Origin: a virus
Lineage: Duplodnaviria; Heunggongvirae; Uroviricota; Caudoviricetes
IMG/VR virus record: IMGVR_UViG_2534681832_000043
Direction: 5' to 3' (one strand)
Length of the DNA stretch: 21,095 nucleotides
In this document: positions 3,001 through 9,000 of the stretch, piece by piece
Layout of the letters: the number at the start of each line of letters is the position of its first letter
How positions within the stretch are numbered: position 1 is the first letter of the stretch
Made by a program: the position numbers

Positions 3001-6000
3001 CAACGGACTTTCTCAGCAGGAAATTGCCGACATTCTGAAACTCTACCCGAACGCGTTTAACGCCGCCTAACGGAGACTGAAAATGAACATCGAAAAAAGC
3101 AGATTAATTTCTGAGGCCGCCCCTCATCTGAACGCCTCTCTGGGCACAATTAACGGTAATGAATTTGCCGCAATTGTTCCGGTTATTCCTGGTCATATCG
3201 GTGGGCGTGAAACCAATATTGTTAGCGCAAAAGCGTTACACAAAGCGTTGGGCGTGGGAAAAGACTTCTCTACATGGATCACTGATCGCATCTCTGAATA
3301 TGACTTCACCATTGGGCACGATTACTCAGTCCATAAAACAATTTCCCCAAATTTGGGGAAAAGCCCGAATGGCACGGCTTACAGCAAGATTAAGCACTCT
3401 GGCAGACCCGGCAAAGACTATCTGTTAAGTGTCGGAATGGCGAAAGAACTGGCAATGATCGAACGCAATGATCAGGGTCGCGCTATCCGCCGTTATTTCA
3501 TCCAGTGCGAGGAAGAATTACAGCGTAGCGTTCCTGAAATCGCCGCCCGCTATCTTCGCCAGCTAAAAGCCCGTATCAGTGCCGCAAACAACTTTAAGCC
3601 AATGTGCGATGCGCTGAATATGGCCCGTGCCGAGCAGGGGAAAACGACGCAGCAACACCACTACACAAACGAGAGCAATATGATTTCTCGTATCGTTCTT
3701 GGTGGGCTAACTGCTAAGCAGTGGGCGCGGATAAATGGCTATTCTGGCGAACCTCGCGACCATATGAACGCAGAACAACTTGAGCACCTCTCATATCTCG
3801 AAAGCACCAATATCACGTTAATTGATATGGGCATGGAATATGAGCAGCGCAAAGGAGAACTCACCCGCCTGTCGCAACGCTGGCTCGCTAAGCGTCTGGA
3901 GGTGGTCCATGTTTAAGCCGACAGGAACACCACAACCTCAAAAACGCTACAAGGATGCCCACGGAGCACTCGTTACTGTCGAAAGCGTGTCTCACAACCG
4001 AGTGACGTTTTATCGCGACGGGTATCAATCGCCATGCGTACAACCGCTGGCGCGCTTCATGAAGGAGTTCGCGGAGGTTAACAAATGCTAACCGTCCAGA
4101 AGAAGATATTTTCACTGGCTGGTATGTCGCCAAAATCCAGCAATATGACAGCAAAGTCTGGCATTAATACAGCAGATACAAGCAAAGTTTATCATTTTCT
4201 GGTGGTGGGAGCGGATGCCTTAACTATGTCAGAAATTACGGTCGATGGTGTTAGCGTTGAGAAGGTCGGCGGCTGCGCCAGAGAATTTCTGGTCGTAGAT
4301 GGCTTTCTCTGCTCGCGTAGTGACTCCACAAAAACCTTCGTCCACACGCGCGACGTTAACGAAATGAGCGCGATGTATTGTGCATCTGGTGCTTCCAATA
4401 GTGAGTTTTCGGAGTCCATAAAAAAGAGCTTGCCGTTATGCGGCAACACGGTTTATGGTTATAAGGCACCTCATAAAACGGGTGCCGGGATTGGCCTCCC
4501 GCTGACAATCGAGGCGATACATGACGCGCCAGCGTCTTTTTTTGTATCGGCGCACACGCACACCTTATCAATGGTGGGCTGTATGGGGCTACCTTCGGGT
4601 AGGCTGGTTTCCTTGATTGCCAGTAAGGCCAACTCCGTACAGTCCACCGCCAGCAAGATTGGTCTCTTGGGCGGTGGCTATAAACCATCAATCAAGGAGG
4701 CTGCCACATGCTGGCTACTACCCCTACCCAAAAACCGCAATTTATCTGGATTATCGCCGCAGTTCGCCGCGATTGCCCGACAATTACCGCCAAAATTCAT
4801 CATATTGCTGCCGAGTCTGAACGCGATGCTCGCCGTTCTCTGGTGCGCGATCACGTCTGCTTTTTTGCTGGTCGTATCCGCATGGAGGTGGCACATGATT
4901 AAAACCTACGATGTGCATATGGACCCCCTCGAACGCACAAGCCAGATCATCACACTGACAGAAGTGATTAATGACATTCTGGTGAGCAACTCTCCCTCAC
5001 GAGACGAAAAACTGAAGGCGTTACTCGCGATATTGGATCTCGCCGTTCGTGACGTTCATTTCCTGCTGGAAGGTGGCGAAATGCCAGTAAAAACGGGGGC
5101 AACCAATGAATAACTCAATTAATACCCCTCGCCTTACGTCCGCACTTCAATTAATCGAGCAAGCAGCGGCTGTCCTGGTTGCTGTCAGTCTTTCGGCTGA
5201 AGAAATGGACGCTGCTGATGTCGTGGATGCGATTAAAGCGTGCTCATCTTTGGTTAACGATGCCCGTGCCGAGCTGGTAATTCTTGGGGGTGAAAAATGA
5301 ATATCAACTTAATTTATCGTCATCCGTGTGAGCTGGAAATTGAATCATTGCTGGGGCGTGAAGAGCCATATCCAGACACATTCACTCCCGCAGATTGCGC
5401 GACTGAACGGCTTACCAGAGCGCGCACAGGTCTGGTTCATGTGATGAATGAGATTGTTCCCTCGGTGGGAGGGGAACAGGCGACAGTAATCAATAGCTGG
5501 CTACAAAAAGTTACCTCCCTGATAGATATCGGTTTAATCGATGTGGAGAGTGCGAAATGACCAACATCCAGCTCATTGAAGCGCAATGTCGCATCGAACA
5601 GGTTCAGACTGTTTTAGGGTTCTGGCTTGAAGGGGCCAGCCCCAGCAACAGAGACAAGTTAATGATTGGCGCGGTTATGTCACTGCTCAATGGCGTACCA
5701 GAAGCTATTCAGGAAGCGGACGAATTGTTGGGCAAATATGAGTTACAGAATCATTCAGGCGAGGCGAAACATGAATAATTTCTTAACTTTCCATGCAGAA
5801 GCAACGCCTGACGGCGTAAACATCATGTACCGCAGCAACGATGGCATGACAGAACGCGTTGAGGCCGTCTCATATATTGATGCCGTAAATCGTCTGGATG
5901 CCGGGGATTATGACGATAAACCAGATGAAGGTATGTCAATACATCTCGCTATAGCCGATGGCGGTAACCAGGGATATTTCGATTACACATCACAGCATAA

Positions 6001-9000
6001 CGTCATTATGTGGAGATGGCTGATCGCAACAGTATTCATGCTGGAAATGAGAGAGGAAAACGGCACTGTCAGCATCATTGATGACAGTGGCAATCATTCC
6101 GTGGTTTCTGTTTATTCCAATGGCATCGTCGCCATGCCGCTGTATCCAGTAGCAGAGCGCCTCGCTATGGCAAACAACATTGAGGGCGCGATGATAGAAC
6201 GTTTTGGCATCGAGTCTGGCACAGAACGCGCCATCATTTTCTACAGAGCCATGATGGATGTGGAACAAGGAGCACTGACTCCATTTGGTCGTGAAACGCT
6301 TGCTGAACTTCACAACAGCTTTATAGCTGAACTGAATGAAAACGGCATGCCAGCGGAACCAGTGACGCACTGAGGATGGAACCATGATTACTAAAAATTT
6401 CCGACTGAATGCGCTGGCAAATAAGTATGCGTCGGCACTGTATAACCACATTACCTCCACCAGCGGCGGGGACTATTTCATGGTTGATGCGGACGGCGAG
6501 GCCGTCCGTGTGGAAATCGTCAATGGAGTAAAAGGCGTTCGCAGCCTGATCGATAGCTACACACTGGCAGCCATGAAAGTGTTCTACCCGCAGTGGGAAA
6601 CCGTGGGGATCGAGCTTCTTGATCGTTGCGTCACTAAGGACGGATTGACTGACGTCGGGCGTGAGATATGGCAAAGCATGGTTAATGACATGGGCGCAAC
6701 TGTAGCGGGAGGTTCTCATGCGTGAAAATGCAGAAATGGCGCTTAGCTCCGCAATCGGAGAGCAGGTGGCAAAGATTGCTGGTGCTGTGTGGATTCATAA
6801 CCTTCATTCTACTGGTGAAGAGAAAATGGCAATTCAGACGCCAGAGGGACGCACCATTACTACATCTCTGAAGCCGTCAGATGTTTGTGATCTGATTTGC
6901 GCATTCATGTACCCAGCAATGAGGACTGTCCACGGCGATAAGTGGAAACTTGCGACAACCGCTGAATTTGATATGTGGCTAAACAATGATGGCATGCTGA
7001 CTGATTACGGAATAACCAAGTGGCAGATGCTGGTTAGCCATATCGCAAACGCTATAGACCACGTGGGGTACGGTGATGCGAAACATTGATCTTATCCGTC
7101 AGGTTATCAGTGCGTCTGAAAACAACTGGCCTCATGTGCTGGGCTGCCTGAACATAAATGTCCCTGACTCTCCGCGCCGTCATGCTCCCTGCCCTGCATG
7201 TGGGGGCAAAGATCGATTCCGGTTCGATGACAACGGGCGCGGTAGCTTCATCTGTAATCAGTGCGGCGCTGGTGATGGGCTGGATTTAATTAAACGCGTA
7301 AATAACTGCGACACAACAGAGGCGGCGCTGCTTGCCGCTGATGTTCTGGGTATTGATTACCGGACAACGGAAACACCAGAAGCCACCAGCCAGAAACGGG
7401 AACAACTGGAAACCGAGCGCCAGCGACGCGAACAGGAGCGCCTGAAAAGGGCAGAGAAGGACGAACAACAAAGACGGGATACGTTTTCCCGTCAGTTTGA
7501 TGACATGCGCAGAAAGGCTGTAAACGGCAAATCTGATTATCTGGTTGCGAAAGGGGTAGGTGATTTTACATTCCCCGTGTTGCCCGATGGATCTCTGTTG
7601 CTGGCGCTGGTGGATAAATCCGGCGCAGTCACAGCAGCACAGACTATTACCTCACATGGTGAAAAAAGACTCCTGACAGGTTCGGCAAAGCGGGGGGCAT
7701 ATCACGCCATAAACGCACAGAAACGACCTCACAGCATCATAATTGCTGAGGGGGTGGCTACCGCCCTGTCGTGCCATTTAATTCGCCCTGACGCAATGAC
7801 AGTGGCAGCAATCGACGCTGGCAACCTGTTGCCAGTAGCGGAAGTCATGCGCAGAACATATCCACAGGCACAAATCATCATTGCCGCAGATAACGATCAC
7901 CAGCAAGGAAACTCCGAAAGTGGAGGGATCAACACGGGGAAAGATGCCGCAGAGAGGGCCGCTATTTCCGTAGCTGGCTGGGTGTCTCTGCCACCGACTG
8001 ACTATAAAGCCGACTGGAACGACTATCACCAACAACACGGGCTGGCGGCAGCCACAGCAGCATTTAAAGATTCGATGTACCAGCCACGGGGGAAAGGGGC
8101 GCAGGTGAAAAATCACAAACAGTCAGTCGGGGCGCTGAATGAGATCAGTTCTGGCGAGGTGTTAAGCGATGATGAAATTGCTGTCCTCGAAGAAATCAAC
8201 CGGACGTTTACGCATGTCACCATCGGCGGGAAACACAAGGTGGTGTCGCTAAAGCCTTCTCAAACCGGCGGTGTATCGCACGTTTTCGAGGATTTATCAC
8301 AATTTCAGCATTATTTTCATCATAAACCGAGAGTCGCCAGAAAGCTGGCGGGATCGGCGTGGCTGTCATGGAGTGGGAAGAACTACAAGCCAGGAGGCGT
8401 AGGATTTTATCCAGTACCAGACAAATGCCCTGACGATGTTTTTAATCTGTATGAGGGGCTGGCACTGGAACCAATTGAAGGAGATTGCACGGTATACCTT
8501 AATCACCTGTTGCAGGTTGTCTGTGCCGGTAATGAAGAGGCATACCAATATCTTATCCAGTGGATGGCGCACATTATCCAAAAGCCTGATGAAAAACCGT
8601 CCGTGGCAATCGTGATGAAATCTGTCCCGGGCACAGGGAAAGGCACAACGGTTAAACCGCTGCTGCAAATACTGGGGCAGTACGCCGCCCACATTAACGG
8701 GGCGGGACATATTTCAGGGCGCTTCAATTCAATACTTGCTAACAAGCTACTGATATTTGCTGACGAAGTGACGATCCACAAGCCGTCTGAAGCTGACAGA
8801 CTTAAAGCGATTATTAGCGAACCGACGTTTAACCTTGAGCGCAAGGGAATTGATGCTGAACCAATGCCGAATTTTGCCCGGTTGATATTTGCCAGTAACA
8901 GCACACAGGTATTACAGGCAGGGATAAGAGAGCGCCGCTATCTCGTGCTTGAGCCATCTCCTGAAAAAGCACAGAGCCGGGAGTATTTTGATCGGCTGTA

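What the first reader, a model, noticed from the sequence alone, without database searches (positions are those of the whole stretch)
4708..7089. Chain of eight translationally coupled small genes feeding into the primase
The ORFs at 4708, 4897, 5106, 5297, 5557, 5771, 6384 and 6718 all overlap start-to-stop (ATGA/TAATG-type junctions) and end at the primase at 7073. In P4 the equivalent operon encodes helper-manipulating factors (epsilon, kil) ahead of alpha. These small proteins are candidates for helper derepression, anti-defence or replication accessory roles.
Basis: partly seen in the sequence, partly recalled or inferred. Interest (0 to 1): 0.4.

Follow-up and report, generated by a model that had tools for sequence, protein, structure and literature searches.

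The report
Satellite early operon gated by antisense RNA
The gene chain is real: it is the early operon of a known type of phage-parasitising island in E. coli, probably switched by a small antisense RNA at its first gene, and seven of its eight proteins have no known function.

Summary
The chain exists, with corrections. Eight same-strand ORFs run from 4708 to 7089. Junctions overlap by 8, 8, 4, 4 and 8 nt, then a 10-nt gap (ORF6 to ORF7), then 8 nt, then 14 nt into the primase (ATG 7076). The "4897" ORF starts at 4895 and is the in-frame end of a 342-codon ORF (4085-5113).

The window is an EcCIMP1-like PICI, a satellite of P22-like phages, not a P4-like satellite. Its early operon is built like the P4 left operon. 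isrK/seqA-like RNA (4466-4542) and C4/CI antisense RNA (4567-4654) lie just upstream. ORF1 is an Icd/Kil homologue. The C4 loop is exactly complementary to the ORF1 ribosome-binding site, and this pairing covaries in nine specificity types across ten elements.

The most likely mechanism is that C4 blocks ORF1 translation and Rho polarity silences the chain and the primase. Helper-induced transcription from alpA would escape because the long ORF is translated across the RNA genes into ORF2/ORF3.

ORF2-8 are small acidic proteins with no known family, fold or P4 counterpart. ORF4-7 are under purifying selection. ORF7 and ORF8 are paralogues. ORF6 is core and the rest vary between relatives. Their functions remain untested. 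This is a new member of a known kind, of modest interest.

The parts
2436..2639 (+). alpA (AlpA-family HTH regulator), first gene of the coupled operon
   Evidence: RefSeq annotation of the 99.5% identical island. 34% identical to P4 orf88/vis. AlpA is the master regulator in EcCIMP1 (PMC11773190).
2639..3070 (+). 143-aa hypothetical protein; TGATG 1-nt overlap with alpA
   Evidence: conserved in all related loci
3083..3916 (+). AntA/AntB-type antirepressor (Bro-network protein)
3909..4091 (+). DUF4222 protein; ATGTTTAA 8-nt overlap with antA/B
   Evidence: Pfam PF13973, 6.1e-25
4085..5113 (+). Eta-like long ORF ('ash family protein', 342 codons). It starts 7 nt inside DUF4222, reads across isrK and C4, passes through icd in the +1 frame, and ends at the ORF2 stop.
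   Evidence: An equivalent ORF of 237-356 codons is open in all 24 loci with a detectable icd. 0 of 20,000 shuffles keep 270 codons open.
4466..4542 (+). isrK / seqA-like leader RNA. It carries the a1 (4491-4497) and b1 (4506-4514) targets of C4, and an intrinsic terminator (stem 4523-4536 plus a T run).
   Evidence: Rfam RF01394, 65 bits; terminator scan
4567..4654 (+). C4 / P4-CI-type antisense RNA; b' loop at 4610-4619, a' at 4626-4632
   Evidence: Rfam RF01695, 79.2 bits
4659..4698 (+). a2 (4659-4665) and b2 (4689-4698, overlapping the AAGGAGG Shine-Dalgarno of ORF1): predicted C4 binding sites
4708..4902 (+). ORF1: Icd/Kil homologue (64 aa, basic, pI 9.5). Its 5' end is the strongest C>G (rut-like) stretch of the operon.
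   Evidence: NF033153, 3.7e-20; 43% identical to P4 Kil; dN/dS 0.12-0.34
4895..5113 (+). ORF2 (72 aa, pI 4.8). It has its own GGAGG + ATG, but is also the C-terminal part of the long ORF. Found only in the Escherichia/Salmonella type.
5106..5300 (+). ORF3 (64 aa, pI 4.2); no family; Escherichia/Salmonella type only
5297..5560 (+). ORF4 (87 aa, pI 4.7); common in relatives at 50-55% identity; purifying selection
5557..5778 (+). ORF5 (73 aa, pI 4.7); phrog_20558; present in some relatives and replaced by an unrelated 66-aa gene in others
5771..6373 (+). ORF6 (200 aa, pI 4.4); core gene of the island family (all 13 relatives); phrog_1515; also found in early-left operons of temperate phages
6384..6725 (+). 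ORF7 (113 aa); phrog_37628; frequent in relatives; paralogue of ORF8
6718..7089 (+). ORF8 (123 aa); paralogue of ORF7; confident model of helix, beta-hairpin and two helices, with no informative structural neighbour
7076..9427 (+). Primase-helicase (TOPRIM + DUF5906); N-terminal 330 aa are 33% identical to P4 alpha

Best explanation
The eight ORFs are the protein-coding distal part of the early (P4 'left operon'-type) operon of an EcCIMP1-like phage-inducible chromosomal island.

Shown here:
- Directly upstream lie an isrK/seqA-like leader RNA and a C4/CI-type antisense RNA.
- ORF1 is an Icd/Kil homologue.
- The C4 hairpin loop is exactly complementary to the ORF1 Shine-Dalgarno region. The pairing is maintained by compensatory change in nine different specificity types.
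- The genes from ORF1 to the primase are joined by 4-14-nt overlaps or 9-12-nt gaps in every relative.
- A long ORF coupled to the upstream gene is kept open across both RNA genes in every locus with a detectable icd.

Inferred, by analogy with P1 immI and P4 immunity:
- In the resident island, a constitutive internal promoter just upstream of isrK makes short transcripts that yield C4 RNA.
- C4 occludes the ORF1 ribosome-binding site. The untranslated, C-rich 5' end of ORF1 then lets Rho terminate. ORF2-8 and the primase stay off.
- When a P22-like helper activates the alpA promoter, ribosomes follow RNA polymerase through alpA, hyp143, antA/B, DUF4222 and the Eta-like ORF. They pass over the isrK terminator and C4. 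In this Escherichia type they pass in the +1 frame straight through icd to the ORF2 stop, which overlaps the ORF3 start.
- Unbroken translational coupling therefore carries transcription, insensitive to immunity, down to the primase. On this reading the tight coupling is the mechanism, not just compaction.

The products of ORF2-8 are small acidic proteins of unknown families. My best guess is that they are early accessory proteins that act by binding host or helper proteins. ORF6 (and often ORF7) would be the conserved core. ORF2-5 and ORF8 would be an exchangeable cassette.
For: - Rfam hits isrK (65 bits) and C4 (79 bits) at 4466-4654. The same tandem occurs in P4 and in 11 of 11 related loci scanned.
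- ORF1 matches NF033153 Icd-like (3.7e-20) and P4 Kil.
- The motif CAATCRAGG occurs only three times in the window (0.37 expected): b1 in isrK, the b' loop of C4, and b2 on the ORF1 Shine-Dalgarno.
- Cognate loop/Shine-Dalgarno complementarity is 8-11 nt (mean 9.3). Non-cognate complementarity averages 4.1 across 10 elements.
- Junctions are conserved.
- The long ORF is open in all 24 loci with a detectable icd (the 25th, Xenorhabdus L020, has only a diverged icd-like ORF), and in 15 of 17 loci examined its first ATG lies within 45 nt upstream of, or overlaps, the stop of the preceding long ORF (4-40 nt overlap from that ATG).
- The isrK terminator is the only + strand terminator-like site between 2361 and 9724.
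- The strongest C>G stretch of the operon is at 4704-4800.
- P4 eta/kil/CI logic, and C4/isrK hits in Gram-negative PICIs, are described in PMC10111431.
- EcCIMP1 carries the same chain, and its alpA is helper-induced.
- Purifying selection acts on ORF1 and ORF4-7. ORF8 folds confidently. The cassette varies between relatives.
Against: - No transcript, processing, Rho or translation data exist for this island. Promoter positions are not established, and the simple sigma-70 scan did not call a promoter upstream of isrK.
- Part of the protein-level conservation of the long ORF comes from the conserved RNA genes beneath it.
- The stop-free +1 frame through icd (64 codons) could be partly fortuitous.
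- Nothing identifies a target or activity for ORF2-8. ORF2 and ORF3 lack divergent orthologues, so selection on their products is unproven.
- EcCIMP1 had no measurable effect on helper induction or titre, so a helper-directed role is not indicated.
Confidence: 0.65

Rival explanations
1. ORF6-8 (and perhaps others) are replication accessory proteins that act on the primase-helicase. They would be positional analogues of P4 Cnr (orf106), which sits just upstream of alpha and regulates it.
For: - ORF8 overlaps the primase start. ORF6 is present in all relatives and ORF7 in most, always directly upstream of the primase.
- cnr lies between epsilon and alpha in 90% of P4-like elements (PMC8628076).
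- There are weak profile similarities of the ORF6 C-terminus to orf106 (E 0.029) and to the ORF7/8 family (E 0.011).
- The helix-hairpin-helix-helix layout is similar in the ORF8 model and the C-terminal half of the low-confidence ORF6 model.
Against: - The similarities are not significant (hhalign probability 1-4%). There is no DUF5375 hit.
- ORF6 homologues occur in phiP27 and Klebsiella prophages in the repressor-to-int early-left operon. That is away from replication genes, and no P4-type primase is annotated in the 9-10 kb around them.
- Relatives lacking ORF7 and/or ORF8 still carry the primase.
Confidence: 0.2
2. One or more of the small proteins is an epsilon-like helper derepressor or another helper-manipulating factor.
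For: - They occupy the same operon position as P4 epsilon.
- The cassette is variable and the products are small and acidic.
Against: - There is no match to PF25738 or to P4 epsilon.
- EcCIMP1 changes neither Kapi1 titre after induction nor Kapi1 CI expression (PMC11773190).
- An AntA/AntB antirepressor encoded upstream (3083-3916) is a more obvious candidate for that role.
Confidence: 0.1
3. Some of the short ORFs, chiefly ORF2 and ORF3, matter only because they are translated. They would keep ribosomes on the mRNA and so prevent Rho termination, and their peptide products would have no function.
For: - ORF2 is just the tail of the long ORF.
- ORF2 and ORF3 have no homologues outside the Escherichia/Salmonella type and no family hits.
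- SNPs show no clear excess of synonymous change: 6 synonymous to 7 non-synonymous, and 3 to 3.
Against: - Both have their own Shine-Dalgarno-like sequence and ATG, and are kept intact in about 490 genomes.
- The other chain members are clearly under purifying selection.
Confidence: 0.12

Closest known systems
Satellite phage P4 left (early) operon: seqA/isrK - CI RNA - eta/kil - epsilon - orf151 - cnr(orf106) - alpha
   Same: - The isrK + C4 RNA tandem.
- A Kil/Icd homologue as the first translated gene.
- A long Eta-type ORF over the RNA genes, carrying the Pfam Phage_ASH signature.
- 8-nt start/stop overlaps between the genes.
- An alpha-like primase at the end.
- An AlpA/Vis-type gene upstream.
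   Different: - No epsilon, orf151, cnr, psu, sid or delta.
- Seven unrelated small genes replace epsilon-orf151-cnr.
- The long ORF is not in frame with kil/icd here. It is in the +1 frame and ends at the next gene.
- The helper type is a P22-like podophage rather than P2.
- The helicase half of the primase is different.
Phage P1/P7 immI operon (a1 b1 - c4 - a2 b2 - icd - ant)
   Same: - The same order of target sites, C4 RNA and icd.
- b2 covers the icd ribosome-binding site.
- The DNA of this module is 83-87% identical to P1-like phage-plasmids and Stx phages.
   Different: - Downstream of icd is not ant but seven small genes and a primase.
- The antirepressor gene lies upstream of the RNA module.
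EcCIMP1, PICI of E. coli MP1 (Pick, Stadel & Raivio 2025, PMC11773190)
   Same: - The same alpA(type)-hyp143-antA/B-DUF4222-ash-icd-ORF2..8-primase block. Chain proteins are 91-100% identical.
- P22-type ejection-protein genes downstream.
   Different: - A different integrase and attachment site (next to yicC versus tRNA-Thr at proA).
- alpA is only 33% identical.
- The primase C-terminal domain differs (DUF5906 versus DUF927).
- The window copy carries an IS3-family insertion.
- The paper does not discuss the RNA genes, icd or the small genes.
Gifsy-1 isrK-orf45-anrP locus of Salmonella (PMC4825925)
   Same: - An isrK RNA with its own terminator, followed by a short ORF whose translation controls downstream expression through coupling.
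   Different: - There, IsrK acts in trans as an activator of orf45 translation, and the output is an antirepressor plus the AntQ antiterminator.
- Whether isrK has such an activating role here is unknown.

Membership tests
C4/CI antisense-RNA immunity module (P1 immI / P4 immunity) | A C4-family RNA scoring above the Rfam gathering score | tested here: met
   RF01695, 79.2 bits against a gathering score of 45, at 4567-4654
C4/CI antisense-RNA immunity module (P1 immI / P4 immunity) | An upstream leader (isrK/seqA) carrying a first copy of the target sites (a1, b1) | tested here: met
   RF01394, 65 bits, at 4466-4542; a1 at 4491-4497 and b1 at 4506-4514
C4/CI antisense-RNA immunity module (P1 immI / P4 immunity) | C4 loops complementary to the ribosome-binding region of the first downstream ORF, with covariation | tested here: met
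   A 10-nt exact match to -19..-10 of ORF1. Cognate complementarity is 8-11 nt against a non-cognate mean of 4.1 in 10 elements, with nine loop types.
C4/CI antisense-RNA immunity module (P1 immI / P4 immunity) | Repression of translation leads to Rho-dependent termination of the operon | not testable with these tools
   Only consistent features were found: the strongest C>G stretch of the operon is at 4704-4800, and the genes are tightly coupled.
Icd/Kil family (NCBIfam NF033153) | Profile match above the curated cut-off | tested here: met
   71.7 bits against a cut-off of 25, E 3.7e-20; 43% identity to P4 Kil
Icd/Kil family (NCBIfam NF033153) | Inhibits cell division or kills the cell when expressed | not testable with these tools
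   Needs expression in vivo
Gram-negative PICI (EcCIMP1 type) | int and alpA co-oriented, own primase, about 20 kb, no capsid, tail or lysis genes, near-identity to an experimentally mobilised PICI | tested here: met
   Annotation of the 99.5% identical island. The same block occurs in EcCIMP1. The int-alpA RNA RF02996 lies at 1269-1335.
Gram-negative PICI (EcCIMP1 type) | Helper-dependent excision, replication and packaging | not testable with these tools
   Shown for EcCIMP1 with Kapi1 (PMC11773190), not for this copy, which also carries an IS insertion
P4-like satellite (core genes int, psu, delta, sid, alpA, epsilon, alpha) | Presence of psu, sid, delta and epsilon | tested here: not met
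   tblastn of all P4 proteins against the window matches only int, alpha (N-terminus), kil and vis/alpA. No such products appear in the RefSeq annotation.
P4 epsilon (Pfam PF25738, Derepression protein) | Profile or sequence match for any of ORF2-8 | tested here: not met
   No Pfam hit and no blastp or tblastn hit. P4 epsilon itself scores 4.2e-50 against PF25738.
P4 Cnr / DUF5375 (PF17345) | Profile match for ORF6, ORF7 or ORF8 | tested here: not met
   No Pfam hit. hhalign gives E 0.029 and 0.051, probability 1-2%.
Ubiquitin-like beta-grasp (lead for ORF8 from a PDB sequence search) | Beta-grasp fold | tested here: not met

The most novel reading that the evidence does not exclude
In the Escherichia (EcCIMP1) type and one Klebsiella relative, a 1-nt shorter C4-to-icd spacer puts the Eta-like ORF in the +1 frame of icd. 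That frame is stop-free through icd only in these loci, and it terminates at the stop of the second chain gene. This would give the operon two separate translational entry routes:
- a C4-sensitive route through icd;
- a C4-insensitive route that bypasses icd entirely and delivers ribosomes to ORF2/ORF3.

Induced expression of the chain and the primase would then be uncoupled from production of the toxic Icd/Kil protein. This has not been described for P4, where kil is nested in frame within eta.

In addition, ORF2-8 may include new families of small acidic inhibitors of host or helper proteins. ORF6 is shared with the early-left operons of temperate phages.
Probability: 0.3. Interest if true: 0.5.

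Novelty: new member of a known kind. Interest (0 to 1): 0.3.

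Why it matters
EcCIMP1-type islands sit in about a fifth of complete E. coli genomes by partial match, and about 5% carry this whole block. Yet their early operon has not been analysed. Recognising that it is gated by a P4/P1-type antisense RNA has three uses:

- It explains why the genes are chained so tightly.
- It predicts immunity groups among co-resident islands, since nine loop/target specificities were seen in ten elements.
- It identifies which small genes are core (ORF6, ORF7) and which are exchangeable (ORF2-5, ORF8). This narrows the search for the factors behind EcCIMP1's unexplained superinfection-immunity phenotype.

It also flags an annotation problem. Pfam Phage_ASH, and the 'ash family protein' label, describe the Eta-like ORF lying over two RNA genes. 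They do not describe P4 epsilon.

Tried and rejected
- **ORF2-5 as a tandem array of paralogous helical hairpins.** Pairwise shuffling gave z of 1.9 or less. The best profile comparison gave E 0.0068 at 5.6% probability. Rejected.
- **ORF6 related to P4 Cnr or to ORF7/8.** Only weak hhalign hits were found. Left as an unproven lead.
- **A structure for ORF6.** The AF2 model is poor (pLDDT 63), so no fold search was run on it.
- **An exhaustive profile search for ORF6.** It gave 143 representatives. Ten of them, including the longer ones, were scanned and have no informative Pfam domain.
- **Family libraries.** Pfam, NCBIfam, PHROGs and PADLOC give no function for ORF2-8.
- **PDB sequence searches for ORF6 and ORF7.** Nothing found.
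- **SNP codon-position test for ORF2, ORF3 and ORF8 within E. coli.** Too few variable sites.
- **Column-based covariation count on a MAFFT alignment of C4 plus target (A6).** Abandoned because the pairing register shifts between loci. Replaced by a cognate versus non-cognate complementarity matrix.
- **The afdb50 fold library.** Not available.

Full report
**1. Observation**

The + strand between 4708 and 7089 holds eight ATG-initiated ORFs. Their sizes are 64, 72, 64, 87, 73, 200, 113 and 123 aa.

The junctions are as follows:
- ORF1 to ORF2: ATGATTAA, 8-nt overlap.
- ORF2 to ORF3: ATGAATAA, 8-nt overlap.
- ORF3 to ORF4: ATGA, 4-nt overlap.
- ORF4 to ORF5: ATGA, 4-nt overlap.
- ORF5 to ORF6: ATGAATAA, 8-nt overlap.
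- ORF6 to ORF7: a 10-nt gap, not an overlap.
- ORF7 to ORF8: ATGCGTGA, 8-nt overlap.
- ORF8 to the primase: 14-nt overlap, taking the conserved ATG at 7076.

Each start is preceded by a purine-rich Shine-Dalgarno-like sequence. That ORF is also the in-frame end of a 342-codon ORF, 4085-5113, which RefSeq calls 'ash family protein'.

The coupled chain also extends upstream. The genes alpA (2436), a 143-aa gene, antA/B, DUF4222 and the long ORF follow one another with a 1-nt overlap, a 12-nt gap, an 8-nt overlap and a 7-nt overlap.

**2. What the element is**

The region is 99.5% identical to a chromosomal island next to yicC in E. coli ETEC1721. Parts of it occur in 1115 of 5426 complete E. coli genomes, and the whole block occurs in about 250.

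The same block is present in EcCIMP1 of E. coli MP1: hyp143, antA/B, DUF4222, ash, icd, six annotated small genes and a primase. ORF2 is also present there but is not annotated. Chain proteins are 91-100% identical. EcCIMP1 has been shown experimentally to be a PICI. It is induced and transduced by the P22-like temperate phage Kapi1, with alpA as master regulator (PMC11773190). That paper treats the small genes as hypothetical and does not mention icd or the RNA genes.

The window is not a P4-like satellite. P4 psu, sid, delta, epsilon, orf151 and cnr have no match.

**3. The RNA module in front of the chain**

Rfam finds isrK (4466-4542, 65 bits) and C4 antisense RNA (4567-4654, 79 bits) immediately upstream of ORF1. 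ORF1 is an Icd-like protein (NF033153, 3.7e-20).

P4 has the same isrK + C4 tandem. ORF1 is 43% identical to the last 65 residues of the P4 'cI137' ORF, which I take from my own knowledge of Forti et al. 1999 to be Kil. The DNA of this module is 83-87% identical to P1-like phage-plasmids and Stx phages.

The C4 hairpin-2 loop UCCUUGAUUG (4610-4619) is exactly complementary to CAATCAAGGA (4689-4698), which overlaps the AAGGAGG Shine-Dalgarno of ORF1. The motif CAATCRAGG occurs three times in the 21-kb window against 0.37 expected. The three sites are in isrK (b1), in the C4 loop (b') and on the Shine-Dalgarno (b2). A second site pair behaves likewise: a1 at 4491, a' at 4626 and a2 at 4659. The order a1 b1 - C4 - a2 b2 - icd is that of the P1 immI operon (my own knowledge: Citron & Schuster 1990; Biere et al. 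1992; Riedel et al. 1993).

**4. Comparative test**

Twelve loci from Kluyvera, Shimwellia, Kosakonia, Enterobacter, Lonsdalea, Klebsiella, Atlantibacter, Xenorhabdus and Escherichia were added to the E. coli variants. They share the backbone alpA - hyp143 - antA/B - DUF4222 - [isrK, C4] - icd - small genes - ORF6 - (ORF7) - primase.

All 11 loci scanned have isrK + C4. The C4 loop differs in nine specificity types among ten elements. In each, the -20..-8 region of icd is complementary over 8-11 nt. Non-cognate pairs average 4.1 nt, and the only high off-diagonal value is between two loci that share a loop. This compensatory variation is strong evidence that C4 pairs with the ORF1 ribosome-binding site.

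Of the 59 junctions in these chains, 46 overlap by 4, 8 or 14 nt. Twelve are 9-12-nt gaps at the same place, after ORF6.

**5. The long ORF**

In all 24 loci with a detectable icd, a frame of 237-356 codons stays open from the end of the preceding gene across isrK and C4. In the 25th locus (Xenorhabdus L020) tblastn found no icd. In 15 of 17 loci examined its first ATG lies within 45 nt upstream of, or overlaps, the stop of the preceding long ORF. None of 20,000 shuffles of the window segment keeps 270 codons open.

- In 12 loci the ORF is in frame with icd, like P4 eta/kil.
- In the Escherichia type, including the window, and in one Klebsiella locus, the C4-to-icd spacer is 53 rather than 54 nt. 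There the ORF runs through icd in the +1 frame. That frame is stop-free only in those loci, and it ends at the stop of the second gene.

Pfam Phage_ASH maps exactly onto the part of this ORF that overlies the RNA genes. This holds in the window, in relatives and in P4. It is not P4 epsilon, which is PF25738.

PMC10111431 summarises the P4 logic:
- A constitutive promoter inside eta gives transcripts that are terminated through CI/seqA pairing.
- Kil is translated on read-through.
- Full Eta is translated only from the upstream late promoter, is coupled to the alpA homologue, and prevents termination.

The same paper notes that C4 and isrK profiles hit several Gram-negative PICIs.

**6. Mechanism (inferred)**

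In the resident state, C4 RNA would block ORF1 translation. The untranslated 5' end of ORF1 is the strongest C>G stretch of the operon (C 36%, G 15%, z 3.1). That would allow Rho to terminate, which silences ORF2-8 and the primase.

After helper activation of alpA, coupled ribosomes would translate without a break through the long ORF. They would pass over the isrK terminator (4523-4542), which is the only + strand terminator-like site between 2361 and 9724. They would continue into ORF3 and on to the primase. It is not merely compact gene packing.

**7. The proteins**

ORF2-8 are all acidic (pI 4.2-5.6), whereas Icd is basic (pI 9.5). No Pfam, NCBIfam or PADLOC family matches them, and the PHROG hits have unknown function.

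Selection and conservation:
- dN/dS, or pN/pS where synonymous sites are saturated, is 0.1-0.4 for ORF1, 4, 5, 6 and 7.
- ORF2 and ORF3 occur only in the Escherichia/Salmonella type, in 490 genomes at 95% identity or more. They show no decisive selection signal.

ORF7 and ORF8:
- They are paralogues (Smith-Waterman z 7.8, 0 of 300 shuffles; joint family of 188 clusters).
- ORF8 folds confidently (pLDDT 92.7) as a long helix, a beta-hairpin and two helices.

ORF6:
- It is the only small gene present in every relative.
- Its family is narrow: 143 representatives at 50% identity among 1.84 billion proteins. Ten of them, including the longer ones, were scanned and show no informative Pfam domains.
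- Homologues at 32-37% identity lie in the early-left operon (repressor to xis-int) of phiP27 and Klebsiella prophages, away from replication genes. This argues against an obligatory primase partnership.

The set of genes between icd and ORF6 differs between relatives. ORF4-like, ORF5-like, 66-aa, 59-aa, 92-aa and 104-aa genes all occur there. ORF7 and ORF8 can be absent.

**8. Verdict**

The P4 analogy is right for the operon architecture and its first gene. It is wrong for the remaining genes and for the class of the element. The regulatory reading is well supported by sequence and covariation, but it is untested experimentally here. The functions of ORF2-8 are unknown.

This is a new member of a known kind: a P4/P1-type RNA-gated early operon in an EcCIMP1-type PICI. 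One variant feature deserves a test, namely the frame-shifted Eta-like ORF that bypasses icd.

Noticed in passing
window 4454-4741 (aa 124-219 of ORF 4085-5113); L008 (P4) 8330-8521: Pfam PF10554 'Phage_ASH', and the RefSeq label 'ash family protein', correspond to the Eta-like ORF segment lying over the isrK and C4 RNA genes. They do not correspond to P4 epsilon, which is PF25738. A published survey of P4-like satellites used PF10554 as its epsilon marker (PMC8628076).
   Followed up: partly
window 13393-14606 (- strand); ALIL pseudoknot at 14209-14325: An IS3-family insertion sequence lies here: two overlapping ORFs with the ALIL frameshift pseudoknot (121.5 bits). It interrupts a P22-type DNA-ejection protein gene that is intact (1422 nt) in the otherwise near-identical island of strain ETEC1721.
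   Followed up: partly
window 11342-17314: The satellite carries a block of P22-like genes: DUF2824, a 225-aa gene, a DNA-ejection protein and an injection protein. This matches its relative's P22-like helper Kapi1. Why a capsid-less satellite encodes its own ejection proteins is unexplained.
   Followed up: no
window 7076-9427 versus L007 (EcCIMP1) 11422-14178: Only the first ~350 residues of the primase are shared (85% identity) with the 918-aa EcCIMP1 primase. The C-terminal helicase part differs (DUF5906 versus DUF927), so the replication module is itself mosaic.
   Followed up: partly
window 1-2639 versus L007: The integrase, the attachment site (next to yicC versus tRNA-Thr at proA) and alpA (33% identity) differ from EcCIMP1. 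Everything from the 143-aa gene to ORF8 is 91-100% identical. The integration/regulator module has therefore been swapped. The int-alpA RNA (RF02996) lies at 1269-1335.
   Followed up: partly
window 18648-19610: An Abi-family protein gene lies near the end of the island, in the region where satellites often carry defence cargo. In ETEC1721 the next gene is a PerC-family regulator.
   Followed up: no
L006 4331-4537; L016 5747-5917: Some relatives carry in-frame deletion fusions of chain genes: a 59-aa-type N-terminus fused to an ORF4-type C-terminus, and an ORF7 with an internal deletion. This shows ongoing recombination and decay inside the cassette.
   Followed up: no
window 4460-4465: TATAAG lies directly upstream of the isrK start. 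P4 has TATAGT at the corresponding position upstream of its isrK/seqA. This is a candidate -10 element for a constitutive PLE-like promoter. The consensus promoter scan did not call it.
   Followed up: no
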